A stretch of DNA of 64,000 nt, taken from assembly GCA_034434155.1 (NCBI GenBank), contig DAOUAC010000033.1:15217-79216 (forward strand), in the 5' to 3' direction. This document shows positions 29,743 through 59,852 of the stretch, piece by piece. Both the position numbers and the translations under genes were made by a program. This DNA comes from Anaerolineaceae bacterium. GTDB taxonomy: Bacteria; Chloroflexota; Anaerolineae; Anaerolineales; Anaerolineaceae. Under the pieces are notes generated by a model. The model was not told the DNA's origin. It saw only the letters and a program-made list of their open reading frames with translations, and searched no databases. Every line of letters begins with the position of its first letter. Position 1 is the stretch's first letter.

Positions 29743-29771
29743 TTGACAAGATTGCCATCCTACTTTAAAAT
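29743..29771 (+). promoter_or_regulatory. Sigma-70-type promoter upstream of the EF-G paralog
   Basis: TTGACA (29743-29748), 17-nt spacer, TAAAAT (29766-29771), about 45 nt before the start codon. Confidence 0.55.
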
Positions 29772-45150: not shown

Positions 45151-46193
<1,043 letters not shown>

Positions 46194-46197
<4 letters not shown>

Positions 46198-47252
46198 TCT
46201 TCCACCTCATCTGAATATAAGAAACATCGCACGGTATGGCCCTCTGCCACCCGGGTGATCGCCGGAACATGGACATCGCATTTTCCCGGCATATACGCGG
46301 CACAGCGCGGATGGAAGGGGCAGCCGCGAATATTGGCATATGGATCAGGCACAATTCCTTTAATAGGCTGTAAGCGGGTATGTACCCCGCTGCCGGCATG
46401 TGGAATGGAATTGAGCAGCGCCTGGGTATAGGGGTGCTTGGGAGTATAGAAGATAGGTTTAACCTCAGCCTGCTCGACCACCCGTCCCAGGTACATCACT
46501 GCTACATAGTCGCACATCTGCGCCACAACGCCCAGGTTATGAGTGATGAATACAATCGTCATGCCAAGCTCAGCTTGCAGATCACGCATCAGGTCCAAAA
46601 TTTGGGCCTCAGTCGTCACATCCAACGCAGTGGTTGGCTCATCGGCAAACAACAGCGATGGGTTGCACGAAAGTCCCATGGCGATCATGGCGCGCTGGCG
46701 CATCCCCCCGCTGAGTTCGTGCGGGTAGCGTTTAAAGATCGCCCTGGGATTTGCCATGCCTACCTGATCGAGAATGTTGATGGTGCGCTTCTCGGCCTCG
46801 CCCTGATCCACTTTCTGGTGCAAGACAATGGCTTCGCTGATCTGCTCGCCGATGGTATAGGAGGGATTGAGTGAAGTCATCGGTTCCTGAAAGATCATTG
46901 CCAGTTCGGCCCCACGAATCTGGCGAATCTCGCTCCCCATGGGGTCCAGGCTGGTCAGGTCAATCTCCTCAACCACCTTACCAGAAGCACCGCCCCGTTT
47001 GCGGCTGTAGAGAAGAATCTCTCCTTTAACGATCTTGCCGGGGCGCTGGACCAGGCGCATGCAGGAGAGGGCCGTAACACTCTTGCCGCAGCCGCTTTCA
47101 CCAACCACGCCCATCACCTTGCGGGCGGGGATGTCAAAACTCACCCCATTGAGGGCCTTGGCTACGCCGATATCCGTGTAAAAGTAAGTGTGCAAATCTT
47201 TAATGCGCAGAATGATATCGCCTGCGCCATTTGTCCCCATTGGGTTGCTCAT
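46194..47252 (-). CDS. Opp/Dpp-type ABC transporter ATP-binding protein (D-like)
   Basis: Walker A GESGCGKS, signature LSGGMRQR, Walker [13 protein letters not shown]-terminal GCPFHPRC. 4-nt overlap with the next gene. Confidence 0.93.
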
Positions 47253-47471: not shown

Positions 47472-48572
47472 CTAGATTACCTCTAAAGCATCGCGGTCAC
47501 CCAGGGGAGGAAAGGGTGCGTGCGGTTCGCTTTGATACCAGTAAGCCACCGAAGCGATATCATCTTGCAGCGGCAAGTAGCGGCCTTCACTGCGCCAGCC
47601 GATCGCCTGCATCGTCACCCGCAGGTCCGAATTGAAGCGGATGGGGTCCTGGATATGGAAGCGGTACAGCCCGTGGCGATTGCCGGGCCTGCCGTCTACA
47701 CCGCCATAGGGATAGCCCAAGTACGGGGCGCTAAAGTTAGCGCCAAAGCCCCAGGCTCCGCCAAAATAATCTTCCGTCCCGGTCCCGCAGATGGTGGGAA
47801 ACTGGCTGTCACCATCAATAAAGACCTTGAATTCGCCTTCACCCCACCAGCCAGTAGAGTTCTGCTGCCAGGCCATGTACGTCCCAACGTAGTGGCCTTT
47901 GCCCTTCACGCCATCCAGGATGGTGTAATCTTGTTTGTAAGCCAGCGGATTGGTGCGGCGGAACTGCGCATGGAAGTAAGCATCCTCCGCGTCAATCTCG
48001 GTTTCAGCGAAATTGATCGCGTAGAAGAAGCCCGGGACCTCATCAGGTGAGCGGTTTTCGATGGTGATACGGGCGTGCTTGCGGAAAGGCATAGGGAAAT
48101 AGCAGTTAAAGCCTCCCGTGGGGTTTACGTTAATGGGCAAGGCCAGGATAGGGGTCGGGACCTTCCAGCCGTTGCAGAAGAAGTCACCCAGGGGCGATTC
48201 GACGCTTGGCTCGCTTTCACCATCCCAATACATGCGCAGGATCAGATCACGCCAGCGTTTGGAATCTACCGTGTACCACATATGCTGGATAATCCCTGGG
48301 CCATCTACGTCCATCAGGGTAGTGACCGATTGTTTAGGCAGTGTGATACAGGGGCGCACCTTCCAGGTCTGGCCCAGGTCGCGCGCGCAGGGGTTTGGGC
48401 CATCCCACTTCTGCCCAATCTTCGCAACTTCAGGTTGGGGAGTGTCGGTCAGGTCGGCCATGCCGCCTTTACCTTTTTCACCGTAAACATTTTCCGCCGT
48501 GATTGAGCGCGTCACAGCATTAGAGAGCTTCATGATATTGCCGAGGTTCATGTAAGCACCATTGAAAGACAT
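47472..48572 (-). CDS. DUF2961 / glycoside hydrolase family 172 protein (paralog A)
   Basis: Motifs AYFHAQFRR, WWGEGEFKVFIDGD, CGTGTEDYFGGAWGF, LYRFH. No signal peptide. ATG 48572 is preceded by AAGGAGAAGG. Confidence 0.85.
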   Translation of the reverse strand: MSFNGAYMNLGNIMKLSNAVTRSITAENVYGEKGKGGMADLTDTPQPEVAKIGQKWDGPNPCARDLGQTWKVRPCITLPKQSVTTLMDVDGPGIIQHMWYTVDSKRWRDLILRMYWDGESEPSVESPLGDFFCNGWKVPTPILALPINVNPTGGFNCYFPMPFRKHARITIENRSPDEVPGFFYAINFAETEIDAEDAYFHAQFRRTNPLAYKQDYTILDGVKGKGHYVGTYMAWQQNSTGWWGEGEFKVFIDGDSQFPTICGTGTEDYFGGAWGFGANFSAPYLGYPYGGVDGRPGNRHGLYRFHIQDPIRFNSDLRVTMQAIGWRSEGRYLPLQDDIASVAYWYQSEPHAPFPPLGDRDALEVI

Positions 48573-48597: not shown

Positions 48598-49701
48598 TTA
48601 GCGATCCCAGCGTTCATCCATCGCCGGGAGTGGTGGGAATGGTTGGTGAGGCTCTAGCTGATACCAGTAGGCTACCGAAGCAATGTCATCGGTCAGGGGC
48701 TGGTAACGATGGTTCGGCCACCAGCCCAGCGCCTGCACCGTCACTTTGATATCTTTTTGAAACCCAATGCTGTCTAACAGATGCCAGCGGTACAGGCTGA
48801 ATTTTCGGGGGCTTTGCGGGTCTTTGTTATACGCCAGCGGCAGGCCCAGGAACGGGGAATTAAACTCCTGCTCAACCTGTTCCTTTTTGGGGTCCTTATA
48901 GAAACACCAGGCCCCGCCGAAATAATCTTCTGTGCCGTTATCGGAGAGAGTTGGAAATTCACCGTCGCCATCGAGGTAGAATTTGACTTCGCCCTCGCCC
49001 CACCAGCCGCGCGAGAAGGCCGTCCAGGCCAGGTACGTGCCGACATACACGCCGCGCCCCACCACGCCATCCAGGATCACGTGTTCAGGGTAACTGCGGC
49101 TGGTCAGACTGCGGCGCCATTGGGCATGGAAGTATGCGGCGTCTTCGGGAATTTCTTGTAGTTTATACAATACTCGGTACGCGACGATATTGGCATCGCG
49201 CGGCCCCTGGTTTTCGAGAGTGATGCGCGCGTGCTTGCGAAAAGGCATAGACCAGTACGAAGCACAGCCGCGGTGAGGTCCTACATGGACGGGCAGTGAT
49301 ACCACTGTGTGGGGCGCGGCATCATGGCCCATGGCGAAGAAATCGCCCATCGGAACTTCAACAGAAGGGGTGTCTTCCCCATCCCAATAGAAACGCAGGA
49401 TCAGAGCGCGAAATTCAGGCAAATCACTGGTGATCCAGAACTCGTTAATGCACCCAGGCCCGGTAATGTCAGCTAAGGTGACGGTTTCCCCGGCGGCCAC
49501 ACGGATGAATGGACGAACCTTCCAGCCGCGTCCCAGGTCCAGCGCCGCCCCAGAATGAGGCAGGTCGGGATGGTTCGGGTCGGGGTCCCAACGGCAGGCC
49601 GCGCCTTTTTCGCCAGTGGGGTTTTCGGCATTAATTTGCCGGGTAACGGCCCCATGCTGCAGCGGCAGTGAGCCAAGCAGATTGTGAAAGAGTGGGTTCA
49701 T
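48598..49701 (-). CDS. DUF2961 / glycoside hydrolase family 172 protein (paralog B)
   Basis: Motifs AYFHAQWRR, WWGEGEVKFYLDGD, NGTEDYFGGAW, LYRWH. No signal peptide. Confidence 0.85.
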   Translation of the reverse strand: MNPLFHNLLGSLPLQHGAVTRQINAENPTGEKGAACRWDPDPNHPDLPHSGAALDLGRGWKVRPFIRVAAGETVTLADITGPGCINEFWITSDLPEFRALILRFYWDGEDTPSVEVPMGDFFAMGHDAAPHTVVSLPVHVGPHRGCASYWSMPFRKHARITLENQGPRDANIVAYRVLYKLQEIPEDAAYFHAQWRRSLTSRSYPEHVILDGVVGRGVYVGTYLAWTAFSRGWWGEGEVKFYLDGDGEFPTLSDNGTEDYFGGAWCFYKDPKKEQVEQEFNSPFLGLPLAYNKDPQSPRKFSLYRWHLLDSIGFQKDIKVTVQALGWWPNHRYQPLTDDIASVAYWYQLEPHQPFPPLPAMDERWDR

Positions 49702-49780: not shown

Positions 49781-49794
49781 TGAATACGTTTACA
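49781..49794. promoter_or_regulatory. LacI-type operator, distal site of unit A
   Basis: TGAATACGTTTACA: 14-bp palindrome-like site centred on CG. Confidence 0.6.
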
Positions 49795-50009
49795 ACGTCT
49801 GACGGGGGTTGAAACGCATTCTCTAAGCGGGTTGCAACTTGCCAAAGCGGCAACTACCCGCAGGGAGCGCCACTTTGGCGCTCTGAATATTTATTTAGAA
49901 AGGACCCAGGCGCACAAAAATTGGAAATACTGTTTACAGCTTAAACGACCCGGTCAAAAGACACTAACGGCGAAACAGGCTTTCTATGTTGTAGATTCCA
50001 GAAAATAAT

Positions 50010-50023
50010 TGTAAACGTTTTCA
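50010..50023. promoter_or_regulatory. LacI-type operator, proximal site of unit A
   Basis: TGTAAACGTTTTCA, 14 nt downstream of the -10 box of promoter A. Confidence 0.65.
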
Positions 50024-50037
50024 AATGCGCCAAAACC

Positions 50038-50066
50038 ATTATAGTAATAATACCTACCCTTGTCAA
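50038..50066 (-). promoter_or_regulatory. Consensus sigma-70 promoter A (drives GH172 B-A)
   Basis: Minus strand reads TTGACA (50066-50061), 17 nt, TATAAT (50043-50038). Confidence 0.7.
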
Positions 50067-50370
50067 TAGAACTGGCATTGGCAACCCAAGATCGCAGAGT
50101 GAACTCGGTGTAACGCATTTCAAAACAGAGTGGGATGTACCAGAATTATTTGCTGTTTTTTTTAGGGTCGAATGGGGTACATCTTTCCAAAATACCTCTT
50201 TTTCCTTTGCAAGTGGGGCAAAAACCCTCAAAAATTAGTGAGGTTAGTTGCCCTCCTAAGATCGCCATTTGCCCTCTTAATCTTTCAATCCATGCTATAC
50301 TCTTATATTGACACCTCAAAATCGTTTTCTCAATTGTGCGCGGGCTGTACATTTTTCTTAGGAGTATTCC

Positions 50371-50859
50371 GTGAACGAAGGAACGCAACCCAAACCGGTT
50401 TATACCGGAATGAAACAACATAATGATCGCGCCGGTTTCGTTTTGTGGCTGCCGAGCGACTGGCACGAGTTTAAACTCAAAGACAAGCGCAAGGGCGTAT
50501 TGTTTTCTCCCTATGCCGATGATTTCAACACCGGCATTTTGGTAGAAAAAAATAAGCTCAGGGTGCGCGTGAAGCCAGGCGACCTGCCTTACCTGCGCGA
50601 AGCCTTTATGGCTGGCATCAAAGCACTCGATGGCGTTGAAATCGAGCCGGGTTCAGAATCTGAGTTCATCAGCCAGGGACTAAGCTTCTTTGAGGTGCGC
50701 TTTTCCTTCCTGGAAGGCGAAATCCGCCGCAAGCGCTGGGTCAGAAACATTTACTGGGGCAGAAACAACTATATCCTGATCGCTCAGGGGCGGACCCCCG
50801 AAGACTTTGATTACTGGCTGCCGATGTTCTTTAACATCATGCTGACGGCCTACGTATAG
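50371..50859 (+). CDS. Hypothetical cytoplasmic protein (possibly PsbP/DUF1795-like fold)
   Basis: GTG start preceded by taggag. GFVLWLPSDWHEF resembles PsbP/DcrB-like beta-sandwich starts. Followed by its own terminator. Confidence 0.55.
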   Translation: MNEGTQPKPVYTGMKQHNDRAGFVLWLPSDWHEFKLKDKRKGVLFSPYADDFNTGILVEKNKLRVRVKPGDLPYLREAFMAGIKALDGVEIEPGSESEFISQGLSFFEVRFSFLEGEIRRKRWVRNIYWGRNNYILIAQGRTPEDFDYWLPMFFNIMLTAYV

Positions 50860-50880
50860 ATTATTTGAATGAAATAAACC

Positions 50881-50924
50881 GTGTTTCCGCTTCGATGCTG
50901 TCAGTATCATCGAAGCGGAAACAC
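50881..50924. terminator. Bidirectional terminator between the orphan gene and the permease operon
   Basis: 17-bp perfect stem gtgtttccgcttcgatg/catcgaagcggaaacac, with a T-run after it on the plus strand. Confidence 0.75.
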
Positions 50925-50939
50925 AGCTTTTTAATCAAA

Positions 50940-52112
50940 CTAAATGGAATAGGGGTCCATGGCATCGCGGATGCCATCGCCCAGGAAGCTGAAGAACAGC
51001 ACGGCGATGATGACGGCCACGCCGGGGAGCATCAGCCAGGGATGTTGGAGAATAACAGTGACCTGCTGAGCATCGCGCATCAACGCCCCCCAACTGACCA
51101 TTGGTGGAACAATCCCCAACCCCAAAAAGCTTAGGGCCGTCTCGCCCAGGATCATGCCAGGAATGCTGAGGGCCGCAGTGACGATGATATGGCTGGCAGC
51201 GTTGGGCAGCATGTGAATGAAGATCACCTCTCGGTCGTCAGCCCCACAGGCCAGAGCCGCCTGGACGAAGTCCGCGCTGCGGTAGGCCATCACCTTGGCG
51301 CGCAGTTGGCGGGCCAAGCCGGTCCAACCAATCAGCGACAGCACCACGGTGATGAGGAAATAGCGATGTAAAGGGGTAAAGCTGGAGGAAATGGGCGGCA
51401 GGGCCGCGGCCAGGGCCGCCCACAGCGGAACTGTAGGAAAAGACATAAGCACTTCGATGATCCGCTGCATGACATCGTCAATCAGCCCCATGTAATAGCC
51501 CGACACCGTCCCCATGATGGAGCCAAACAGGATGCTGAGAGCCACGCCTAACAGGCCGATGGTCATCGAAATCTGCCCGCCCACCAACAGCCGGGCAAAC
51601 ATGTCGCGCCCGACCTTATCCGCTCCAATCAGGTAGATGCGGTGGGGCTTGTCCACTCCGAACAGATGGATGTCTGTCTTGATAAAGCCAAACAGCGTGT
51701 AAGGATCCCCCTTGGCAAAGAAGCGGATAGGGACCAGTTTACTGCGATCCAGCACCATCTCAAACTTGAGAGTCTCTTTGTTCAGCTTGGTAGTCATGGG
51801 GATGAGATAGGGCTGCAAGCTGAAACGCCCGTTCTTATCCAGGAAGGTAATATGGCTGGGACCCCCATACGAGTAGTTGTCGTCGTTGGTCATATATTCG
51901 TTGGGCGCCAGGAACGGCCCCAGAAAAACCAGGATATACATCACAATCAGGCCGATCAGCCCCGTCATCGCCAGCTTGTTGCGCGCAAAGCGCAGGCGCA
52001 TGAGCTGCCACTGCGACATCTGCCCTACCGGGCTGGCGGCTTCCTCAACCATCAATTGGGCCTGGGGAAGGGGTGTAACTGCTTTTTCCATGGCGGTTCC
52101 TCTCCGGCTCAC
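50940..52112 (-). CDS. Opp/Dpp-type ABC transporter permease (C-like)
   Basis: N-terminal extension plus 6 TM core. GTGA overlap with the upstream permease stop. Confidence 0.92.
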   Translation of the reverse strand: MSRRGTAMEKAVTPLPQAQLMVEEAASPVGQMSQWQLMRLRFARNKLAMTGLIGLIVMYILVFLGPFLAPNEYMTNDDNYSYGGPSHITFLDKNGRFSLQPYLIPMTTKLNKETLKFEMVLDRSKLVPIRFFAKGDPYTLFGFIKTDIHLFGVDKPHRIYLIGADKVGRDMFARLLVGGQISMTIGLLGVALSILFGSIMGTVSGYYMGLIDDVMQRIIEVLMSFPTVPLWAALAAALPPISSSFTPLHRYFLITVVLSLIGWTGLARQLRAKVMAYRSADFVQAALACGADDREVIFIHMLPNAASHIIVTAALSIPGMILGETALSFLGLGIVPPMVSWGALMRDAQQVTVILQHPWLMLPGVAVIIAVLFFSFLGDGIRDAMDPYSI

Positions 52113-53092
52113 TCGTAGCGGATGCGTGGGTCAACCCAGGCCAACAGCATATCCGCGCCCAGGTTGCCGATCAACAGCAGGATCGACAGGAACATCAGGA
52201 ACGTGCCAGCCAGGTACATGTCTTGCCGCAGCAGAGCATTGAAGTACAACGGCCCCGTTGTCGGCAGGTTCAGCACAATCGCCACAATCGTCTCCCCGGA
52301 GATGATCCCCGGCAGGCTGCCCCCCAACACCATAATCAGCGGATGGATGGCGTTGCGCACCGCGTGCTTCCACGTCACCACGCTCTCTTTCAGTCCCTTG
52401 GCACGTGCCGTCTGCACGTACTGCATGTTCAGCACATCCAGCAGATTGGCGCGCATGACCCGGCTCAACCAAGCCGTCCCGCTGGCCCCAATCACCACCA
52501 TCGGGATCCACAGGTGCTTGAGCAGATCCACGAACTTGGCAAAACTGAAGGGGGCGTTCTCAAATTCGCGTGAGTACAGCCCGCCTACTTCAATACCCAG
52601 CACCTGCTGGGCAAACATCATCAACAAAAGCGCCAGCATGAAGTTGGGTACTGCCAGACCCACGAACTGTAATACTGTGATAATGTAGTCTGGCGCGGTA
52701 TAGCGGTGCGTGGCTGAGTACACCCCCACCAGGATCGCCACCACCCAACTGAACACCAGTGTCAGCAACGAGATGATCACGGTGAACCCCAACCGCGCTC
52801 CGATCAACTGTGAGACCGGCAGGTTGTAGCTGAAGGCCTCGCCAAAGTCGCCGCGCACAAAGCCTGAGATCCACTTCCAGAAGCGCACGTAGGCCGGTTG
52901 ATCCAGCCCGTACCGCCGGTAGAGCGCCTTCACCTGTTCCATACTCATCGTGCCGCCCTGGCGCTGCAAACGCTGGATTTCGGTCTCCACGTAAGATCCG
53001 GGTGGCAGTTCGATGATGATGTATCCCAGCACCGTCACAATTGCCAGGGTCACCAGCATGTAGCCAAGACGGCGGAAGAAGTAATTGAGCAT
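52109..53092 (-). CDS. Opp/Dpp-type ABC transporter permease (B-like)
   Basis: MLNYFFRRLGYMLVTL is the canonical DppB/OppB start. ATG 53092 has AGGAG 6 nt upstream; the track start 53113 is TTG. Confidence 0.92.
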   Translation of the reverse strand: MLNYFFRRLGYMLVTLAIVTVLGYIIIELPPGSYVETEIQRLQRQGGTMSMEQVKALYRRYGLDQPAYVRFWKWISGFVRGDFGEAFSYNLPVSQLIGARLGFTVIISLLTLVFSWVVAILVGVYSATHRYTAPDYIITVLQFVGLAVPNFMLALLLMMFAQQVLGIEVGGLYSREFENAPFSFAKFVDLLKHLWIPMVVIGASGTAWLSRVMRANLLDVLNMQYVQTARAKGLKESVVTWKHAVRNAIHPLIMVLGGSLPGIISGETIVAIVLNLPTTGPLYFNALLRQDMYLAGTFLMFLSILLLIGNLGADMLLAWVDPRIRYE

Positions 53093-53194
53093 ACTACTCT
53101 CCTGATAGGGCAAATCTTATAAACGCAGGGAGAAATGCCCCTACAATCCCCACAAGTTTGCCACACTCATGACACACGCAATTTTTAAGAACAT

Positions 53195-53230
53195 GGGGAG
53201 GAGGAACCGCAGGGACTCTTCCCCCTCCCC
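53195..53230 (-). other. Intercistronic hairpin after the binding-protein gene
   Basis: ggggaggaggaa...ttccccctcccc: about 12-bp stem with one mismatch, in the 177-nt SBP-permease spacer. Confidence 0.45.
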
Positions 53231-53269
53231 AACCTATACTATTATAGTACAGCCGCTAGAACTGACGGT

Positions 53270-55399
53270 TTACTTAAACGAATAAGTTTCCGGGTTGGTC
53301 ATCGCCATGTTGGGCATAATCCAGGGGTAGACCCAGCCGCCCAGCTTGTACTGCTCACGCCGCGGAACGTTCTCCATCTTCTTGCTGACGATCATCACGT
53401 GACCCTCGTTTGCCACCGTGCCAATGAAGAAGGGGCCCTCTTCGATGTGGACATTCCACAGCTCGTACTCCAACTGGGTGCGCTTGAGGGTATCCACCTC
53501 GACGATCGCCTTGAAGTAGATCTGGTGCAGTTTCTCGTAGACCGTGCCGGCATACTCGGGGTCTTTCTTGTTGAAGCGCGGCGGCTTGCGATCCCACGGG
53601 CTGATATCCGCTTCCTCAAACTCCTGCGGCGTGCCAAAGTACAGGAAGCCCTTCCCGCACAGCGGAGCCCACCGCTCGTGCGTGGTCGGGGTGCCGGGGT
53701 CGGGATAAACCAGGAAGTCCGGCCCATCGGCCCACTCCCACTGGCAGTGCATGGAGCCTCGCCCCGCGTACCACTCCGCCGAATACTGCGCGCTCGGCAG
53801 CGAGTTCAGCACGACTTTGATGCCAATGGCCTCGAACTGCGGCTTGACGATCTCCAGCACGGTCAGGTACAGGCCCTGGATGTCAGCGGTCACGTCAATG
53901 ATATGCTCGAACTTGGTGCCGTCCGGGTACTCGCGCCAGCCGTCGCCGTCCACGTCTTTCATGCCGATCTCGTCCAGCAGGGCCTTCGACTTCTCAGGGT
54001 TGTACTCAATATAAGCTTCGCGGGCTTTCTTGTAGTAAGCGCGGCCTTCCTCGCTCCAGTTGAATGGATACGCTTTGGGGCTGAACGTGCCGGTACTGAG
54101 AATCCCTGTCCCGTAATAAGCCTTCTCCTGGATCACGGCGCGGTCAATCGCGTGCGAAAGGGCCTGGCGGTACTTCTTGTTGCGGTACAGCTCGCGGCGC
54201 TTCGGATCGGGATGGTCGTGGTTGAAGAAGTAGTTCGCCCCAGAGCCAGAGCCGCTGTCTAGCAGGAAGACCTCGTACCCGCCCTTCTCTTCGTTCTCCT
54301 TCAGGGTCGCATAGTTGGCAAGCTGCCCATACTGCCAGTTGTTGTGGTCGCTCGCGCCCTGCATAATCATCGCCAGGCGGGCTTCCGTATCGAGGACCTC
54401 TTCCTCATCCCAGCCATCAATGTAGGGCAGTTGGTTGCCTTCGGGGTCCACCGCATAGTAGTACGGGTTGCGATCCCAACTGGCCGATTTGGAGACTTCG
54501 TAGCGCACGCACATCCAGGGGTCGAGTGTCGGGCATTCCGGGTTCTGCCGGAAGAGGATCTTCTGGTTGAGCGTCTCGAAGTCCTTGTATTCAGGGTTGT
54601 ACTTTGGGTGGAACTGCTTGATATAGTGCGCCGGCGTGATCCAGCGGCACGGCCCAATACAGCCCTTCACCCACATCGCCAACTGCTTGAGCGTCAGCGG
54701 GGCGGGCGTGCCGTAGGTCAGTTTAATGGTGAAGTCATCCATCTGCGTGATCTTCACCAGATCACCGTTGGCGTCGTGTGACCATTCGGGCAAGCCGTCG
54801 GGGTTGTTGGGGTCGGTCGCGATGGTCAGATCGTTCCACCAGAACATGGTGTCGTTCATCGTGGCAGGGGTGCCATCCGACCACTTCACACCCTCGCGCA
54901 TGTGCAGAATCCACTCGCTGTTGTCTTCATTGGTTGACCAGGTGTCGCACAGCCCAGGGGCAATGCCCATGCCGTCATCAATCCAGCGCACCGGCGAATA
55001 CCCGTACTGGCCTTCCTCAAAGAAACCGGCCAGCCAACTCGTCTGCATGTGGCTGCGGCCGCCGTATTTGCCGATGACGTTCACTGGGGCCAGTACCAGG
55101 GGATTGACGGGCAGGCGTTCTTCGACCGGGGGCAGTTTACCGGCTTTGACCAGCTCGGCCAACAGCGGCGATTCTTTGTACTTGGCGCCCGCCACAGTTG
55201 GGACCGGCGTGGCCGTGCCAGCCTGGGTGGGAATCGCGGTGGGTTCAGCGGTCGCTTCAACCATCTCCGTAGGGGCTTCAGCCTCAGTGGGAGCTGTCAC
55301 ATCAGGCGTGGGTTGGGCACAGGCCGCGAACAACATTCCACCCACTCCGGTGGCCGAAGCGATCAAAAATTCCCGTCGACTTAACTTCTTTGAAGCCAT
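53270..55399 (-). CDS. ABC transporter substrate-binding protein, family 5 (Opp/Dpp type), probable Tat-exported lipoprotein
   Basis: ATG 55399 preceded by GGAGGAAGAA. SRREFL twin-arginine motif, LFAAC lipobox, about 45-aa T/P/A/E linker, then an SBP_bac_5-like body. About 709 aa. Confidence 0.88.
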   Translation of the reverse strand: MASKKLSRREFLIASATGVGGMLFAACAQPTPDVTAPTEAEAPTEMVEATAEPTAIPTQAGTATPVPTVAGAKYKESPLLAELVKAGKLPPVEERLPVNPLVLAPVNVIGKYGGRSHMQTSWLAGFFEEGQYGYSPVRWIDDGMGIAPGLCDTWSTNEDNSEWILHMREGVKWSDGTPATMNDTMFWWNDLTIATDPNNPDGLPEWSHDANGDLVKITQMDDFTIKLTYGTPAPLTLKQLAMWVKGCIGPCRWITPAHYIKQFHPKYNPEYKDFETLNQKILFRQNPECPTLDPWMCVRYEVSKSASWDRNPYYYAVDPEGNQLPYIDGWDEEEVLDTEARLAMIMQGASDHNNWQYGQLANYATLKENEEKGGYEVFLLDSGSGSGANYFFNHDHPDPKRRELYRNKKYRQALSHAIDRAVIQEKAYYGTGILSTGTFSPKAYPFNWSEEGRAYYKKAREAYIEYNPEKSKALLDEIGMKDVDGDGWREYPDGTKFEHIIDVTADIQGLYLTVLEIVKPQFEAIGIKVVLNSLPSAQYSAEWYAGRGSMHCQWEWADGPDFLVYPDPGTPTTHERWAPLCGKGFLYFGTPQEFEEADISPWDRKPPRFNKKDPEYAGTVYEKLHQIYFKAIVEVDTLKRTQLEYELWNVHIEEGPFFIGTVANEGHVMIVSKKMENVPRREQYKLGGWVYPWIMPNMAMTNPETYSFK

Positions 55400-55646
55400 T
55401 TCTTCCTCCAATTGTAAACGCTGGTTCAGTCATCCTTACGCAATGAAACTCCGTTCAGGTTATTTCTCCATTCACCTCCTTATCCCGAAAAAAATGCCGG
55501 TCGCCTGCCGCCTGTTATGTTATGCTTTCACCCGGCAGATCAACCTTCTTCTGCCCAAAATATGCTCCTGGTTTTAGGTTGGGAAGAACAGGGGAATAGC
55601 GCGCGAACCCACCTATACCAGCTCAAAAATTAAGCGATGATCATTG

Positions 55647-55660
55647 TGAATACGTTTACA
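55647..55660. promoter_or_regulatory. LacI-type operator, distal site of unit B
   Basis: TGAATACGTTTACA, identical to the 49781 site. A degenerate copy TGCAAACGTATCCA lies at 55690-55703. Confidence 0.6.
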
Positions 55661-55896
55661 ATCAGCTGCAACACTTGGAGCAACAGAACTGCAAACGTAT
55701 CCACATCACGAGCCAAATATCCAGCCAAACCGGTAAAAGCGAGGCTCTATCAGCCCAAGGAAACACCCAAAGAAAATATAAATATTTAAGGAAAAATAAT
55801 ACCATCCAGGCATTTGGCTAAAACGCCTGTTTAGCAGCCCAAGTGGTGATTGAAACTGTAAACTGCCGTTTTTTTGCCAAAAAGACAGGAAAAAAT

Positions 55897-55910
55897 TGTA
55901 AACGTTTTCA
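55897..55910. promoter_or_regulatory. LacI-type operator, proximal site of unit B
   Basis: TGTAAACGTTTTCA, 14 nt downstream of the -10 box of promoter B. Sequence and spacing are the same as in unit A. Confidence 0.65.
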
Positions 55911-55924
55911 GTTATACCAAAATC

Positions 55925-55953
55925 ATTATAGTAAGATTAACCGCGCTTGTCAA
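55925..55953 (-). promoter_or_regulatory. Consensus sigma-70 promoter B (drives SBP-permease operon)
   Basis: Minus strand reads TTGACA (55953-55948), 17 nt, TATAAT (55930-55925). Confidence 0.7.
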
Positions 55954-56099
55954 TAGATTTTTTCCGGCTCATCTCCCAAAAATTGTTCCCTGCCTTCCAA
56001 AGGTTCATAAGCCACCTGTTTAAGTTATTCTTTGGATCATTACCGCATGCCGAAGAACCGGATAACGTGCGCTTTGGCTCTGGCATCGTTGACTGCCTA

Positions 56100-56128
56100 T
56101 TGACAATCATTGGAGATGTCACTATAAT
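56100..56128 (+). promoter_or_regulatory. Consensus sigma-70 promoter C (drives GH172 C - lacI - GH172 D)
   Basis: TTGACA (56100-56105), 17 nt, TATAAT (56123-56128). Divergent from promoter B, with the -35 boxes 146 bp apart. Confidence 0.7.
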
Positions 56129-56134
56129 GATCTT

Positions 56135-56148
56135 TGAAAACGTTTACA
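56135..56148. promoter_or_regulatory. LacI-type operator, proximal site of unit C
   Basis: TGAAAACGTTTACA, 6 nt after the -10 box. Confidence 0.65.
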
Positions 56149-56326
56149 AATCCTTATTTTTTCGAGTTCAAGGTGGGCCAGATCAATTGTTTGACCTGAT
56201 CCATAACCTACGGTAAAATCAGGTGCTTTCTTTGTAAACTCGTTTTCCTGGCTGGGCGTCCTCTGGCAGAAACAGTTTTGCCCTTAAAGGTCTTCGCTCA
56301 TCCGATCCGCAGGTTGCCCAAAAAGC

Positions 56327-56340
56327 TGAATACGTTTTCA
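56327..56340. promoter_or_regulatory. LacI-type operator, distal site of unit C
   Basis: TGAATACGTTTTCA, 192 bp centre-to-centre from the proximal site. Confidence 0.6.
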
Positions 56341-56432: not shown

Positions 56433-57518
56433 ATGTCGGAACAATTCAATGGTCTACATCTCAATCTGGGAAACCTCTCACGCCTGTCGCACGCCAAAAC
56501 CCGCTCGATCAGCGCGGAAAACTTTACCGGCGAGAAGGGCAAGGCGGCCATGGCTACAGAAGGTACCGGCGCGCGCTGTGCCCGCGACCTGGGCCAGGGC
56601 TGGAAAGTCTCTCCCTCCGTTGTGATCGAACCCCATTCGCTCTTTACTATGGCTGAAATTCAGGACCAGGGAGCAATCCAGCAAATCTGGATCACCACGC
56701 ACCCTAATAACTGGCGGACAACGGTACTGCGCATGTACTGGGATGGCGAAGAGTCTCCATCCGTCGAGACTCCCCTCGGCGATTTTTTCTGCTCCGGCTG
56801 GTGCGAGCGCGTCAACATCCGCTCGCTCCCAATTGCGGTCAATCCAGCCGGCGGGTTCAATTCCTATTGGGAGATGCCTTTCCGCAAATCAGCCCGCATC
56901 ACCCTGGAAAACCTGTCGGACGAAAAAATTGTCGTCTACTACCAGGTTAACTACACCCTCACTACCGTCCCCGACGATGTTGCCTATTTCCACGCCCAAT
57001 GGCGGCGCAGTAACCCACTGCCCTACAAAACCGAACACACCCTGCTCGACGGTGTTCGCGGTCAGGGGCATTATGTTGGCACATACATTGCCTGGGGAGT
57101 TAACAACAACGGCTGGTGGGGCGAGGGCGAGATCAAGTTCTATATGGATGGCGACCAGGAATTCCCCACCATCTGCGGCACCGGCACAGAAGATTACTTC
57201 GGTGGAGCCTGGAACTTCGAATTCCCCAAAGGCGAGTACGGCGTCTTTACCGGCCCCTACACCGGCCTCCCTCAGGTGATTAAACCAGATGGCCTCTACC
57301 GCTCGCAACAGCGCTTTGGCCTGTACCGCTGGCACATTATGGACCCCATCCGCTTTGAACAGGATCTTAAAGTCACCATCCAGGCCCTGGGCTGGCGCTC
57401 CGGTGGGCGCTACCTGCCAGAGCAAGATGACATTGCCTCTACCAGTTTCTGGTATCAGACCGAACCCCATGCCCCCTTCCCGCCTCTTCCCGGCCGGGAT
57501 GAGTTAGAGGTCATCTAA
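56433..57518 (+). CDS. DUF2961 / glycoside hydrolase family 172 protein (paralog C)
   Basis: Motifs AYFHAQWRR, WWGEGEIKFYMDGD, CGTGTEDYFGGAWNF, LYRWH. RBS aaggag. No signal peptide. Clearly similar to paralog A along its full length. Confidence 0.85.
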   Translation: MSEQFNGLHLNLGNLSRLSHAKTRSISAENFTGEKGKAAMATEGTGARCARDLGQGWKVSPSVVIEPHSLFTMAEIQDQGAIQQIWITTHPNNWRTTVLRMYWDGEESPSVETPLGDFFCSGWCERVNIRSLPIAVNPAGGFNSYWEMPFRKSARITLENLSDEKIVVYYQVNYTLTTVPDDVAYFHAQWRRSNPLPYKTEHTLLDGVRGQGHYVGTYIAWGVNNNGWWGEGEIKFYMDGDQEFPTICGTGTEDYFGGAWNFEFPKGEYGVFTGPYTGLPQVIKPDGLYRSQQRFGLYRWHIMDPIRFEQDLKVTIQALGWRSGGRYLPEQDDIASTSFWYQTEPHAPFPPLPGRDELEVI

Positions 57519-57619: not shown

Positions 57620-58693
57620 GTGTCTATGTTAAATTCAGGTTCAGGTAATGAGCGTAAGAAGGTCTCAACGATCCGGCAGGTAGCGGAAGCGGCTGGTGTG
57701 TCCATTGCAACGGTTTCGCGCGTGCTGAGCGGCAAAGGTGGGGTCTCAGAACAACTGGCCGAGAAAGTCCGGCAGGCGGCGGCTGAGCTGAATTTTAAGC
57801 CCAACCGCGTTGCTCGCGGACTGCGCCGCCAGTATATGCAAACCATCGGGGTTATTGTCACCGATATTCAGAACCCATTTTTCACCAGCGTCTTACAGGG
57901 CATCGAGCGCGTGCTCGAAGCCAGCGGATACGTCCTTCTGCTGTGCAATTCCGACGAACAGCCCAACCGCGAGAAAATCCATCTGGCGACCTTACAGGCC
58001 GAAGGTGTAGCTGGCATTATCATTGCCCCTACCCGCAGTGAAACCGCGCGCTACCAGCCAGTGATTGACAGCGGTCTGCCCATCGTCGTGATCGACCGCG
58101 AAGTACCAGACCTGCGCGCCGACTGCGTTACCGTGAACAATACCGATGCGGCCATCAGTGCCGTGAACCATTTAATCAGCCTCGGCCATAGAAAAATCGG
58201 GTTAATCGCCGGCCCCAACCATGCCACCACCTCGGTTGCGCGCCGCAAAGGCTATCTACAGGCCCTGCGCGATGCCGGCATCAGCCATGTACCCGAATAT
58301 ATCCAACTGGCCGATTATAAGCAGTGCGGCGGTTATGAAGCCATGGGCAGGCTTCTAAAACTCGCAGATCCCCCCACTGCCGTTATGGTACTCAATAATC
58401 TCATGACCCTGGGAGCGCTCCAGTCCATTCAGGAACACAAACTGCGCGTACCAGGTGATGTTGCTCTCTTGGGCTTCGATGACATGTCCTGGGCCGTTTG
58501 CCTGCAGCCGCCCCTCACCGTGGTGGCACAGCCCACCCATGCGCTCGGAGAAACCGCGGCGCAGTTGATGATTGACCGCATCCAAAACCCATCGCGTCCC
58601 ATTCGCAAAGTAACGTTAGAAACGTCGCTGATCATCCGCGCTTCTACGGCGGGCGCTGATGCGCCCTTCCGTGAAAATTCCTGCAAAGGCTAA
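57620..58693 (+). CDS. LacI-family transcriptional regulator
   Basis: HTH TIRQVAEAAGVSIATVSRVLSG plus a periplasmic-binding-protein-like sugar-sensing core. GTG at 57620 or ATG at 57626. Confidence 0.92.
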   Translation: MSMLNSGSGNERKKVSTIRQVAEAAGVSIATVSRVLSGKGGVSEQLAEKVRQAAAELNFKPNRVARGLRRQYMQTIGVIVTDIQNPFFTSVLQGIERVLEASGYVLLLCNSDEQPNREKIHLATLQAEGVAGIIIAPTRSETARYQPVIDSGLPIVVIDREVPDLRADCVTVNNTDAAISAVNHLISLGHRKIGLIAGPNHATTSVARRKGYLQALRDAGISHVPEYIQLADYKQCGGYEAMGRLLKLADPPTAVMVLNNLMTLGALQSIQEHKLRVPGDVALLGFDDMSWAVCLQPPLTVVAQPTHALGETAAQLMIDRIQNPSRPIRKVTLETSLIIRASTAGADAPFRENSCKG

Positions 58694-58715: not shown

Positions 58716-59852
58716 ATGTCTGCTTTCAAACACAGTCCTTTAGGGCAGCTTGCCCGCCTGCGCAACGTGCGCACGCGCCGCGTTTCGAGCTGGGATCGCA
58801 CCGGCGGCAACAACGACTTCCTGGTGGTCCAACCCGCTGAAACCGTTACGTTAGCCGATATTCAAGGCGCTGGCTGTATCAACCACATCTGGTGTACCCA
58901 CATGACCGCTCAGCCCGACTACCTGCGCCGGGTTGTCTTGCGCATGAAATGGGATAACGAGCCCAACTTCTCCGTCGAAGTCCCCCTGGGCGATTTTTTT
59001 GGCGTGGGTCACGCTCAAACCGTTAACTTTTCTTCACTCCCCCTCCAGATGAGCCCCAGCGAAGGGCGCGGGTTCAACTGCTGGTTCCCCATGCCCTTTG
59101 CGGAACGGGCTTACCTGGAACTGCACAACGAAGGCGATACCCCGCTTAACTTCTATTATTACGTTGATTACGAACTGCACGACTCCATTGACCCAGAGAT
59201 GGGCCGCTTCCATGCCCAATGGCGGCGGCAGAATCCCTGCCAGGGCATCTCGGATGAGGGCATGAATAACCTGGAGTTTGAGTTCGGCGGCCAGAATATC
59301 GGCGGCGCGAACAATTACGTAATCCTCGAAGCCGAAGGCAGAGGCCATTACGTTGGCTGCAACCTTAACATCCACAACCTGCGCCGGCGGCCCGAGCTGG
59401 AATGGCCTGCCGATTTAAGCTGGCCGATGAAGTTCGAAGAACTGGGCGACCCCGAAAAGCAGAAGCAGCTCATGAGCATCTTCAACTGGTACGGTGAAGG
59501 CGATGATATGATCTTCATTGACGGCGAAGAATGGCCGCCCTCACTGCACGGAACCGGCACGGAAGATTACTTCAACACCGCTTACTGCCCCATGATTAAA
59601 TACGATGCGCCCTATCACGGCCTGACGATCCCCGGCGGGCCCAACTGGAGCGGTAAAATCTCCCTCTACCGCTTCCACATCGAAGACCCCATCCACTTTA
59701 CCCGCTCCATCCGCGTGACCATCGAACACGGTCACAATAACCAGCGGTCAGATGATTATTCCAGCACCGCTTACTGGTACCAGGCGGAACCCCATAAACC
59801 CTTCCCGGCGCTGCCGCCGGTGCAAGACCGCCTGCCCAACCCCGACAAATGA
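58716..59852 (+). CDS. DUF2961 / glycoside hydrolase family 172 protein (paralog D, most divergent)
   Basis: Motifs RFHAQWRR, WYGEGDDMIFIDGE, HGTGTEDYF, LYRFH. It carries an extra insertion (RRRPELEWPADLSWPMKFEELGDPEKQKQ). ATG 58716 lies 23 nt after the lacI stop. Confidence 0.8.
   Translation: MSAFKHSPLGQLARLRNVRTRRVSSWDRTGGNNDFLVVQPAETVTLADIQGAGCINHIWCTHMTAQPDYLRRVVLRMKWDNEPNFSVEVPLGDFFGVGHAQTVNFSSLPLQMSPSEGRGFNCWFPMPFAERAYLELHNEGDTPLNFYYYVDYELHDSIDPEMGRFHAQWRRQNPCQGISDEGMNNLEFEFGGQNIGGANNYVILEAEGRGHYVGCNLNIHNLRRRPELEWPADLSWPMKFEELGDPEKQKQLMSIFNWYGEGDDMIFIDGEEWPPSLHGTGTEDYFNTAYCPMIKYDAPYHGLTIPGGPNWSGKISLYRFHIEDPIHFTRSIRVTIEHGHNNQRSDDYSSTAYWYQAEPHKPFPALPPVQDRLPNPDK

What the first reader, a model, noticed from the sequence alone, without database searches (positions are those of the whole stretch)
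49781..56340. One promoter-operator module present three times, each with a second operator 190-250 bp downstream
Three sites carry a perfect TTGACA-N17-TATAAT promoter followed by the same 14-bp CG-centred palindrome-like site. These are 50066-50038 (minus), 55953-55925 (minus) and 56100-56128 (plus). The operator sits 14, 14 and 6 nt after the -10 box (TGAAAACGTTTACA in transcript orientation). Units A and B also share flanking sequence (gaaaa.aattgtaaacgttttca...ccaaaa.cattatagtaa), suggesting duplication of a whole regulatory cassette. Each leader holds a second site, TGAATACGTTT(A/T)CA, at centre-to-centre distances of 229, 250 and 192 bp. Unit B has an extra degenerate copy at 55690-55703.
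Inference: the locally encoded LacI-family protein (57620-58693) represses all three units, including its own gene, possibly by looping between paired operators. Caveat: the site also fits the cre-type consensus TGWAANCGNTNWCA, so a global CcpA-like regulator is an alternative binder.
Basis: partly seen in the sequence, partly recalled or inferred. Interest (0 to 1): 0.65.

Follow-up and report, generated by a model that had tools for sequence, protein, structure and literature searches.

The report
Sugar-operon repressor sites on three promoters
Three very strong promoters, each followed by binding sites typical of a LacI-type sugar repressor, control a gene cluster for importing and cleaving D-arabinofuranoside-type sugars in an uncultured Anaerolineae-like bacterium; this is an ordinary, well-known kind of switch, though neatly duplicated.

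Summary
The window holds exactly three perfect TTGACA-N17-TATAAT promoters. Each is followed by the 14-bp CG-centred palindrome. Each leader also has a strong second site 192-250 bp further down.

The three units drive four GH172 (DUF2961) glycosidases, an Opp-type sugar ABC importer and a LacI-family regulator. One glycosidase is very close to a solved exo-alpha-D-arabinofuranosidase.

In relatives whose LacI is 74-82% identical, the -35 box, the -10 box and the first operator are invariant in otherwise diverged leaders. More distant LacI homologues also carry this motif beside their own genes.

A metagenome scan shows that "consensus promoter plus LacI-type operator" is a generic design. In 36 of 97 hits the module sat directly upstream of a LacI-family gene.

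The best reading is therefore a local, autoregulated LacI-family repressor regulon, not CcpA/cre.

Looping is not supported:
- The protein has PurR/RbsR length and lacks a LacI-type tetramerisation tail.
- The second operators are degenerate or absent in several relatives.
- Their spacing shows no common helical phase.

Cassette A is a copy of the B-type cassette. It drives genes cut off from promoter B by an antisense PsbP-fold gene and a strong bidirectional terminator.

Verdict: a new member of a known kind, of low to moderate interest.

The parts
50038..50066 (-). Promoter P_A, perfect TTGACA-N17-TATAAT (B-type cassette copy)
50010..50023 (.). Operator O1_A, TGAAAACGTTTACA in transcript orientation. 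It spans about +9 to +22 if the TSS lies 7 nt after the -10 box.
49781..49794 (.). Operator O2_A, TGAATACGTTTACA on the + strand. It spans about +238 to +251, 86 nt before the GH172 start codon.
48598..49701 (-). GH172/DUF2961 glycosidase A1, first gene of unit A
47472..48572 (-). GH172/DUF2961 glycosidase A2 (366 aa by the public gene call; the ORF runs to 48617)
45151..47252 (-). Two Opp/Dpp-type ABC ATPase genes (46194-47252 and 45151-46197), the end of unit A
50371..50859 (+). orf162, a conserved PsbP/Mog1/Eag-fold protein encoded antisense between the permease genes and unit A
50873..50932 (.). Hairpin with 25-nt arms and U-rich tails on both strands; a likely bidirectional terminator ending orf162 and unit B
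50940..53092 (-). Two ABC permease genes (52109-53092 and 50940-52091)
53270..55399 (-). SBP_bac_5 substrate-binding lipoprotein (709 aa, RR signal and LFAAC motif), first gene of unit B
55647..55660 (.). Operator O2_B, about +259 to +272
55690..55703 (.). Weak third site in leader B (TGCAAACGTATCCA, 13 bits)
55897..55910 (.). Operator O1_B, about +9 to +22
55925..55953 (-). Promoter P_B, perfect consensus, divergent from P_C
56100..56128 (+). Promoter P_C, perfect consensus
56135..56148 (.). Operator O1_C, about +1 to +14
56327..56340 (.). Operator O2_C, about +193 to +206, 99 nt before the start codon
56433..57518 (+). GH172 glycosidase C, very close to solved ExoMA1 exo-alpha-D-arabinofuranosidase (8ic8, E 3.6e-148)
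57626..58693 (+). LacI-family regulator (355 aa; HTH_LacI plus Peripla_BP domains; RbsR/PurR-like; no tetramerisation tail)
58716..59852 (+). Fourth GH172/DUF2961 glycosidase, last gene of unit C

Best explanation
This is a local LacI-family repressor regulon for a GH172 (alpha-D-arabinofuranosidase-type) oligosaccharide uptake and cleavage locus in an Anaerolineae-like bacterium.

Inferred mechanism:
- Without inducer, dimers of the repressor encoded at 57626-58693 bind the CG-centred 14-bp palindromes.
- O1 lies on or just after the start site of each consensus promoter. It spans about +1 to +14 in unit C and +9 to +22 in units A and B. There it blocks RNA polymerase binding or escape.
- O2 lies at about +190 to +270. 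There it most likely acts as an independent roadblock or affinity-raising auxiliary site, rather than as a partner in a tetramer-mediated loop.
- The repressor gene sits in unit C, so the system is autoregulated.
- The inducer is probably D-arabinose or a D-arabinofuranoside.

Origin of cassette A (inferred):
- Cassette A comprises the promoter, O1 and O2, and is a copy of the B-type cassette.
- It drives the GH172-GH172-ATPase-ATPase genes.
- In this strain those genes are cut off from promoter B by the antisense gene orf162 and a strong bidirectional terminator.

What is shown: the sites, their geometry, their conservation, and their association with the regulator.
What is inferred: binding, repression, the inducer and the role of O2.
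For: Non-random sites:
- Three perfect promoters against 0.00 expected.
- All 7 matrix hits of at least 12 bits lie in the three leaders, against 0.24 expected.

Regulator:
- It has HTH_LacI plus Peripla_BP domains.
- It aligns full length with RbsR and PurR, including the hinge leucine that aligns with PurR Leu54.

Conservation:
- Across 6 C-type and 6 B-type modules from relatives, only the -35 box, the -10 box and O1 are invariant. Mean column identity is 41-48%.
- The O1 offset is type-specific: 13-21 nt in B-type modules and 5-12 nt in C-type. Unit A has the B-type offset.

Association with the regulator and pathway:
- LacI orthologues of 55-82% identity, apart from L137, sit next to GH172 genes in the loci examined.
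- In L137 the orthologue (61%) heads a FGGY-kinase plus fucose/arabinose-isomerase operon, with a site 63 nt upstream.
- Homologues of 40-46% identity in Balneolaceae, Prolixibacteraceae and Verrucomicrobia have the motif within a few hundred bp of their own gene and nowhere else in 20 kb.
- The metagenome scan found 97 modules. Of these, 53 have a LacI-family gene on the stretch and 36 have it directly downstream.

Literature (PMC4052901):
- About 90% of LacI-family regulators are local.
- 72% of them are autoregulated.
- Nearly all of their motifs are even palindromes with a central CG.

Cassette duplication:
- A and B share 72 nt at 81% identity, plus the O2 flank.
- The distal part of leader B keeps a 24-nt element found in the GH172-SBP spacer of relatives (z = 7).
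- Relative L145 has the same gene order but no cassette in front of A1 or the SBP gene, no consensus promoter and no motif hit of 9 bits or more in 9.5 kb.
- The hairpin is very stable on both strands: -32 and -39 kcal/mol, z = -7 and -9.
Against: - There is no experimental binding, TSS or expression evidence.
- The motif is shared by many LacI-family branches. A paralogous or global regulator elsewhere in the genome could therefore bind the same sites.
- The rest of the genome could not be scanned. The other 57 kb of the window holds only housekeeping genes, so it says little about other sugar loci.
- Strong O2 sites are not conserved in L032, L135 and L136, so their function is less certain than that of O1.
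- Sigma-70-type promoter use in this lineage is inferred from conservation only.
Confidence: 0.75

Rival explanations
1. The paired operators are bridged by the repressor, so that DNA looping as in lac O1-O2 or gal OE-OI gives cooperative, tight repression of each unit.
For: - Every unit in this strain has two high-scoring sites 192-250 bp apart.
- O2-like sites recur at similar offsets after the -10 box (about 200-265 nt) in L037, L081 and L032.
- The spacings are within 0.3 turn of an integer at 10.5 bp per turn.
Against: - The protein has PurR/RbsR length and aligns with E. coli LacI only to residue 329. Its C-terminal tail (…TAGADAPFRENSCKG) has no heptad leucine helix.
- O2 is decayed by 1-nt deletions, or absent, in several relatives.
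- A fit within 0.3 turn of an integer is expected by chance about 60% of the time per site.
Confidence: 0.2
2. The sites are cre-like targets of a global catabolite regulator (CcpA-like) or of a paralogous LacI-family regulator encoded elsewhere, not of the local protein.
For: - The three O1 sites fit TGWAANCGNTNWCA exactly.
- Very similar motifs serve many different LacI-family regulators, so cross-recognition is conceivable.
Against: - The local protein scores 187.7 bits against a 442 cut-off for the CcpA equivalog model.
- The O2 sites each miss the cre consensus by one base.
- The named relatives are Anaerolineaceae, Leptolinea and Ardenticatenaceae, outside the Firmicutes where CcpA/HPr-Ser-P control is established (own knowledge).
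- The motif tracks the regulator gene across loci.
- There are no sites in the other 57 kb of the window.
Confidence: 0.08
3. The O2 sites are the operators of weaker, gene-proximal promoters, so each unit has two promoters, each with its own operator.
For: - O2_A and O2_C lie 86 and 99 nt before the start codons. This is inside the 30-140 nt range where 75% of LacI-family sites are found (PMC4052901).
- Weak promoter-like matches exist between O1 and O2: 56191-56219 scores 10 of 12 and 49845-49818 scores 9 of 12.
Against: - Such weak matches are no more frequent than in shuffles: 13 found against 9.0 ± 2.7 expected.
- They are not conserved in relatives.
- O2_B lies 252 nt from its start codon.
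Confidence: 0.12

Closest known systems
Local LacI/GalR-family sugar repressors such as RbsR, GalR and PurR-type dimers, as catalogued by comparative genomics (Ravcheev et al. 2014, PMC4052901)
   Same: - HTH_LacI plus periplasmic-binding-protein fold.
- Even palindromic operator with a central CG.
- Operator on or just after the promoter.
- Regulator gene inside the regulated locus, giving autoregulation.
- More than one site per operon, as in about 20% of catalogued operons.
   Different: - O1 lies 290-500 nt upstream of the start codons. Only about 7% of catalogued sites are more than 200 nt upstream.
- Leaders are unusually long, at 300-520 nt.
- The target is a GH172 locus in Anaerolineae, which no catalogue I could search covers.
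E. coli lac (O1/O2/O3) and gal (OE/OI) looping systems; PurR roadblock in purB
   Same: - A primary operator at the promoter plus an auxiliary operator about 100-400 bp away.
- A downstream site within the transcribed region.
   Different: - There is no LacI-type tetramerisation helix.
- HU-dependent GalR-style looping is untested.
- The auxiliary sites are not uniformly conserved in relatives.
CcpA-cre catabolite repression of Firmicutes
   Same: The O1 sequence fits the cre consensus TGWAANCGNTNWCA.
   Different: - The local regulator fails the CcpA equivalog cut-off.
- The O2 sites miss the consensus by one base.
- The lineage is Chloroflexota-like.
- The sites are confined to one locus in the sequence available.
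D-arabinan / alpha-D-fructofuranoside utilisation clusters with GH172 enzymes (Microbacterium arabinogalactanolyticum PUL, PMC10509167; Bifidobacterium dentium alphaFFase1 operon with a LacI-family regulator, PMC8605356)
   Same: - Intracellular GH172 enzyme(s), an ABC importer and, in B. dentium, a LacI-family regulator in one cluster.
- GH172_C is very close to ExoMA1 (8ic8).
   Different: - This locus has four GH172 paralogues.
- Its importer is Opp-type (SBP_bac_5), not SBP_bac_1/8.
- No GH183 or GH116 genes are in view.
- The operators of the published clusters were not described in the passages read.

Membership tests
LacI/GalR-family repressor-operator system | N-terminal LacI-type HTH plus a periplasmic-binding-protein-like effector domain | tested here: met
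   PF00356 (E 8.9e-18) and PF13377, PF00532 and PF13407. Full-length alignment to RbsR 9ny7 (E 9.6e-54) and to PurR.
LacI/GalR-family repressor-operator system | Even palindromic operator with a central CG; hinge-helix leucine that inserts at the central CpG | tested here: met
   The six sites are 14-bp CG-centred near-palindromes. The query segment NRVARGLR aligns with PurR SAVARSLK, which contains Leu54 (residue numbering from own knowledge).
LacI/GalR-family repressor-operator system | Operator overlaps or directly follows the core promoter or TSS | tested here: inconclusive
   The geometry fits: O1 starts 6 or 14 nt after a perfect, conserved -10 box. The TSS has not been mapped.
LacI/GalR-family repressor-operator system | Motif co-occurs with the regulator gene across genomes | tested here: met
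   Orthologues and homologues of 40-82% identity carry the motif next to the regulator or its operon. Actinobacterial homologues of about 43% identity do not.
LacI/GalR-family repressor-operator system | Protein binds the sites and is released by a sugar effector | not testable with these tools
   Needs EMSA or footprinting with D-arabinose or arabino-oligosaccharides.
CcpA/cre global catabolite control | Regulator is a CcpA equivalog | tested here: not met
   TIGR01481 scores 187.7 bits against a cut-off of 442.35 for the local protein. A CcpA elsewhere in the genome cannot be checked.
CcpA/cre global catabolite control | Sites match cre and are spread over many catabolic operons | tested here: inconclusive
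   O1 matches cre and O2 misses by one base. There are no sites in the other 57 kb, but that stretch holds only housekeeping genes.
Tetrameric LacI-type looping repressor | C-terminal heptad-leucine tetramerisation helix | tested here: not met
   The alignment with E. coli LacI stops at residue 329 of 360. The tail after the core is 14 residues with no leucine heptads.
Tetrameric LacI-type looping repressor | Auxiliary operators in helical phase with the primary operator | tested here: inconclusive
   The spacings of 229, 250 and 192 bp equal 21.8, 23.8 and 18.3 turns.
GH172 glycoside hydrolase locus | GH172/DUF2961 catalytic domain; similarity to characterised members | tested here: met
   PF11175 hits four proteins (E 3.6e-86 to 2.1e-101). 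8ic8 ExoMA1 matches at E 3.6e-148 and 2.5e-89. Enzyme activity was not tested.

The most novel reading that the evidence does not exclude
A complete regulatory cassette (consensus promoter, start-site operator and a far-downstream auxiliary operator about 230-250 bp away) was copied as one unit. The copy re-wired the half of a sugar operon that had been cut off by an embedded antisense PsbP-fold gene and a bidirectional terminator. A dimeric RbsR/PurR-like repressor lacking a tetramerisation domain nevertheless uses the paired operators cooperatively, by looping with an unknown bridging mechanism, in Chloroflexota.
Probability: 0.15. Interest if true: 0.45.

Novelty: new member of a known kind. 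Interest (0 to 1): 0.25.

Why it matters
It gives a concrete, testable regulatory model for a GH172 (D-arabinofuranosidase-type) utilisation locus in an uncultured Anaerolineae lineage. The model specifies the promoters, the operators, the regulator and a likely inducer class. Regulation in this group is essentially unstudied.

It also offers a tidy example of operon fission that may have been repaired by duplicating a promoter-operator cassette.

It does not challenge current understanding of LacI-family control.

Tried and rejected
- **RNA elements in the long leaders.** Rfam at E ≤ 1 gave only a chance miRNA hit. Leader folds have marginal z-scores of -1.6 to -2.2. Leaders are not conserved outside the protein-binding sites. 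A riboswitch or attenuator reading was rejected.
- **Population variation.** Five contigs from other samples that carry the same LacI protein are 99.99-100% identical to the window. They gave no information on selection.
- **orf162 as a mobile insert that split the operon.** This was rejected. It has 259 conserved homologues and sits antisense in the same transporter operon in all three contexts seen. It has no PHROG, Pfam or NCBIfam hit.
- **The own genome in the GTDB representatives.** It is not there. The best LacI match is 56% identical, so a whole-genome motif scan was impossible.
- **Proximal promoters at O2.** Only weak, unconserved matches at chance frequency were found.
- **Homology between the O1-O2 spacers of units A and B.** None was found (z = -0.2). 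The duplication is therefore old, or only the functional blocks are retained.
- **The module as something specific to this locus.** This was rejected by the metagenome scan: 97 hits, of which only 3 have GH172 genes.
Full report
**1. The observation**

- The window contains exactly three perfect TTGACA-N17-TATAAT promoters: 50066-50038 (-), 55953-55925 (-) and 56100-56128 (+). Shuffles give 0.00.
- Each is followed, after 14, 14 and 6 nt, by TGAAAACGTTTACA. These sites lie at 50010-50023, 55897-55910 and 56135-56148. They are the only exact matches to TGWAANCGNTNWCA in 64 kb (expected 0.06).
- Each leader holds a second site, TGAATACGTTT(A/T)CA, at 49781-49794, 55647-55660 and 56327-56340. The distances from the first site are 229, 250 and 192 bp.
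- A weak extra copy lies at 55690-55703.
- With a matrix built from the six sites, all seven hits of at least 12 bits in the window fall in these three leaders. Shuffles give 0.24 hits.
- Units A and B share 72 nt at 81% identity around the promoter and O1. They also share 22 nt at 91% around O2.
- One correction: the O2 sites each miss the cre consensus by one base.

**2. What the units drive**

The gene content comes from Pfam and NCBIfam scans and the public gene calls on identical contigs.
- Unit A (minus strand): GH172/DUF2961 (48598-49701), GH172 (47472-48572) and two Opp-type ABC ATPases (46194-47252, 45151-46197).
- Unit B (minus strand): an SBP_bac_5 binding protein (53270-55399) and two permeases (52109-53092, 50940-52091). 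The binding protein has a twin-arginine signal and an LFAAC motif.
- Unit C (plus strand): GH172 (56433-57518), a LacI-family regulator (57626-58693) and a fourth GH172 (58716-59852).

GH172_C is very close to the solved exo-alpha-D-arabinofuranosidase ExoMA1 (8ic8, E 3.6e-148). GH172_A1 is also ExoMA1-like (E 2.5e-89). Published GH172 enzymes are intracellular alpha-D-arabinofuranosidases or alpha-D-fructofuranosidases. They are encoded next to ABC importers and, in Bifidobacterium dentium, next to a LacI-family regulator (PMC8605356; PMC10509167).

The rest of the window is housekeeping: UvrB, Mfd, ClpB, EF-G, PNPase, Mur ligase, ATP synthase and Nuo.

The named relatives of the regulator are Anaerolineaceae, Leptolinea and Ardenticatenaceae. 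The window's own genome is not among the GTDB representatives; the best match is 56% identical.

**3. Comparative evidence**

LacI orthologues of 74-82% identity were traced to contigs L032-L035, L037, L081, L130, L135 and L136. All of these except L081/L130 keep a divergent pair of perfect consensus promoters, each followed by O1. L081 and L130 keep only the C-type module.
- In alignments of six C-type and six B-type modules, the only invariant blocks are (T)C(T)ATTGACA(A), TATAAT and TGAAA(A/T)CGTTTACA. Mean column identity is 41-48%. This is a classic phylogenetic footprint of a promoter and its operator.
- The gap between the -10 box and O1 depends on module type. It is 13-21 nt in B-type modules and 5-12 nt in C-type. 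Unit A has the B-type value.
- Orthologues of 55-61% identity have related sites, TGTAA(A/T)CGTTTACA, before their operons. L138 has SBP-perm-perm-GH172-GH172-LacI-SIS-PfkB-RbsD. L137 has LacI-FGGY kinase-fucose/arabinose isomerase. L001 has GH172-GH172-LacI.
- The L137 and L138 gene sets point to a D-arabinose-type furanose pathway. That step is inference.
- LacI homologues of 40-46% identity in Balneolaceae, Prolixibacteraceae and Verrucomicrobia have the motif within a few hundred bp of their own gene and nowhere else in 20 kb. They have no GH172 neighbours. Actinobacterial homologues of about 43% identity lack the motif.
- A metagenome scan for "perfect promoter, 4-16 nt, TGWAAWCGWTTWCA" found 97 stretches from very diverse habitats. 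Of these, 53 carry a LacI-family gene and 36 have it directly downstream of the module. Only 3 have GH172 genes.

So the architecture is a generic LacI-family design, and the motif is a widely shared family motif.

**4. Mechanism**

With a TSS about 7 nt after the -10 box, O1 spans +1 to +14 in unit C and +9 to +22 in units A and B. That is a repressor position comparable to lacO1.

The regulator aligns end to end with the dimeric RbsR and PurR. The alignment includes the hinge leucine that in PurR inserts at the central CpG. This fits the CG-centred palindrome that characterises most LacI-family motifs (PMC4052901). In the same survey about 90% of family members are local regulators and 72% are autoregulated. 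Here the regulator gene sits inside unit C.

My best reading is a local, autoregulated repressor that shuts three strong promoters until a sugar inducer appears.

The O2 sites lie at +193 to +272. They are far too strong to be chance, but the evidence for lac-type looping is weak:
- The protein aligns with E. coli LacI only to residue 329 of 360. Its tail has no heptad leucine helix.
- O2 equivalents sit at similar offsets in L037 (19.8 bits). In L081 and L032 they carry 1-nt deletions. L135 and L136 have none.
- The spacings correspond to 21.8, 23.8 and 18.3 turns.

I therefore favour independent roadblock or auxiliary binding, and I give looping about 0.2.

**5. Origin of the third cassette**

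- In four relatives (L032, L136, L037 and L135) the B-type promoter drives the A1-like GH172 first, with the SBP and permease genes following in L037 and L135; the DNA-less P0003 contig has a similar gene order.
- In the window, promoter B drives the SBP gene directly. The distal part of leader B still holds a 24-nt element, AAGGAGGTGAATGGAGAAATAACC (55458-55481, minus strand). In L135 and L037 this element lies in the GH172-SBP spacer (z = 7 against L135).
- orf162 (50371-50859, plus strand) lies between the permease genes and unit A. It is not a mobile insert. It has 259 homologues of about 160 aa. In all three contexts seen it lies antisense inside this transporter operon.
- Its predicted structure (pLDDT 91.7) has a PsbP/Mog1/Eag-chaperone fold.
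- Relative L145 has the window's gene order. However, it has only 81 nt between A1 and orf162, no consensus promoter, and no motif hit of 9 bits or more in 9.5 kb.
- The window in addition has a hairpin with 25-nt arms and U-rich tails on both strands between orf162 and the last permease gene. Its free energy is -32 and -39 kcal/mol, with z = -7 and -9.

Taken together, I infer that this lineage terminates unit B at the hairpin and supplies the downstream genes with a copy of the promoter-O1-O2 cassette. The sequence between O1 and O2 shows no residual similarity between units A and B (z = -0.2). So only the functional blocks have been retained.

**6. Rivals**

- CcpA/cre. The local protein fails the CcpA equivalog cut-off (187.7 against 442 bits). 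The O2 sites miss the consensus. The lineage is not Firmicutes. The motif follows the regulator gene across genomes. This rival is unlikely at about 0.08. It cannot be excluded without the whole genome.
- Second promoters at O2. Only chance-level, unconserved matches were found.
- RNA-based control in the long leaders. There is no Rfam hit, the fold z-scores are marginal and the leaders are not conserved.

**7. Verdict**

It is not supported in the looping suggestion.

This is a new member of a well-known kind of system. Interest is low to moderate. The value lies in annotating the regulation of a GH172 locus in an unstudied lineage, and in a clean example of cassette duplication after operon fission.

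Noticed in passing
window 50371-50859 (+): orf162 has no Pfam, NCBIfam or PHROG hit but has 259 conserved homologues of about 160 aa. In all three contexts seen it is encoded antisense inside the Opp-type sugar ABC operon, after the second permease gene. Its AlphaFold model (pLDDT 91.7) has a PsbP/Mog1/DUF1795 (Eag/SciW chaperone) fold and no signal peptide is evident. It may be a transporter accessory protein.
   Followed up: partly
window 50873-50932: A hairpin with 25-nt arms lies between the convergent orf162 and permease genes. It is very stable on both strands (-32 and -39 kcal/mol, z = -7 and -9) and has U-rich tails, so it is a likely bidirectional terminator. The homologous junction in L145 is only 5 nt long.
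   Followed up: partly
window 55458-55481 (-): A 24-nt element, AAGGAGGTGAATGGAGAAATAACC, lies about 60 nt upstream of the SBP start codon. It is conserved in the GH172-SBP spacers of L135 and L037. It looks like a strong Shine-Dalgarno sequence followed, in the window only, by a 3-codon mini-ORF (ATG GAG AAA TAA). Its function is unknown.
   Followed up: partly
window 56233-56248 (+): An operator-like element, TGTAAACTCGTTTTCC, has its half-sites spread by 2 extra central bases. It lies about 100 nt into leader C. It is conserved at the same place in L032, L037 and L135. A similar gapped site follows a third perfect promoter in L136 (5672, minus strand).
   Followed up: partly
window 55412-55424: An operator half-site, TTGTAAACGCTGG, lies directly next to the ribosome-binding site of the SBP gene.
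   Followed up: no
window 53093-53269: The SBP-permease spacer holds a G/C-rich hairpin (about 53196-53231) and a TACTATAAT box (53233-53249, minus strand). Both also appear in the same spacer of L145. This may be a transcript-stabilising or processing element, or an internal promoter.
   Followed up: no
window 29743-29771 (+): TTGACA-N17-TAAAAT lies 45 nt upstream of the EF-G gene (29816). It is the only other near-perfect sigma-70-type promoter in the window, which is consistent with use of this consensus in the organism.
   Followed up: no
window 59934-61664 (-): A 576-aa ORF directly downstream of the locus has no Pfam, NCBIfam or PHROG hit. It is present at the same place in all same-strain contigs.
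   Followed up: no
L137 9938-14699; L138 4228-13073: More distant orthologues of the regulator sit in operons with FGGY kinase plus fucose/arabinose isomerase (L137), or with SIS, PfkB kinase and RbsD/FucU mutarotase (L138). This hints that the orthologous group controls D-arabinose-type furanose catabolism.
   Followed up: partly
window 49864-49884: A 9-bp G/C-rich hairpin lies in leader A and is followed by a T-rich run on the + strand only, which is antisense to unit A. It may stop antisense transcription.
   Followed up: no
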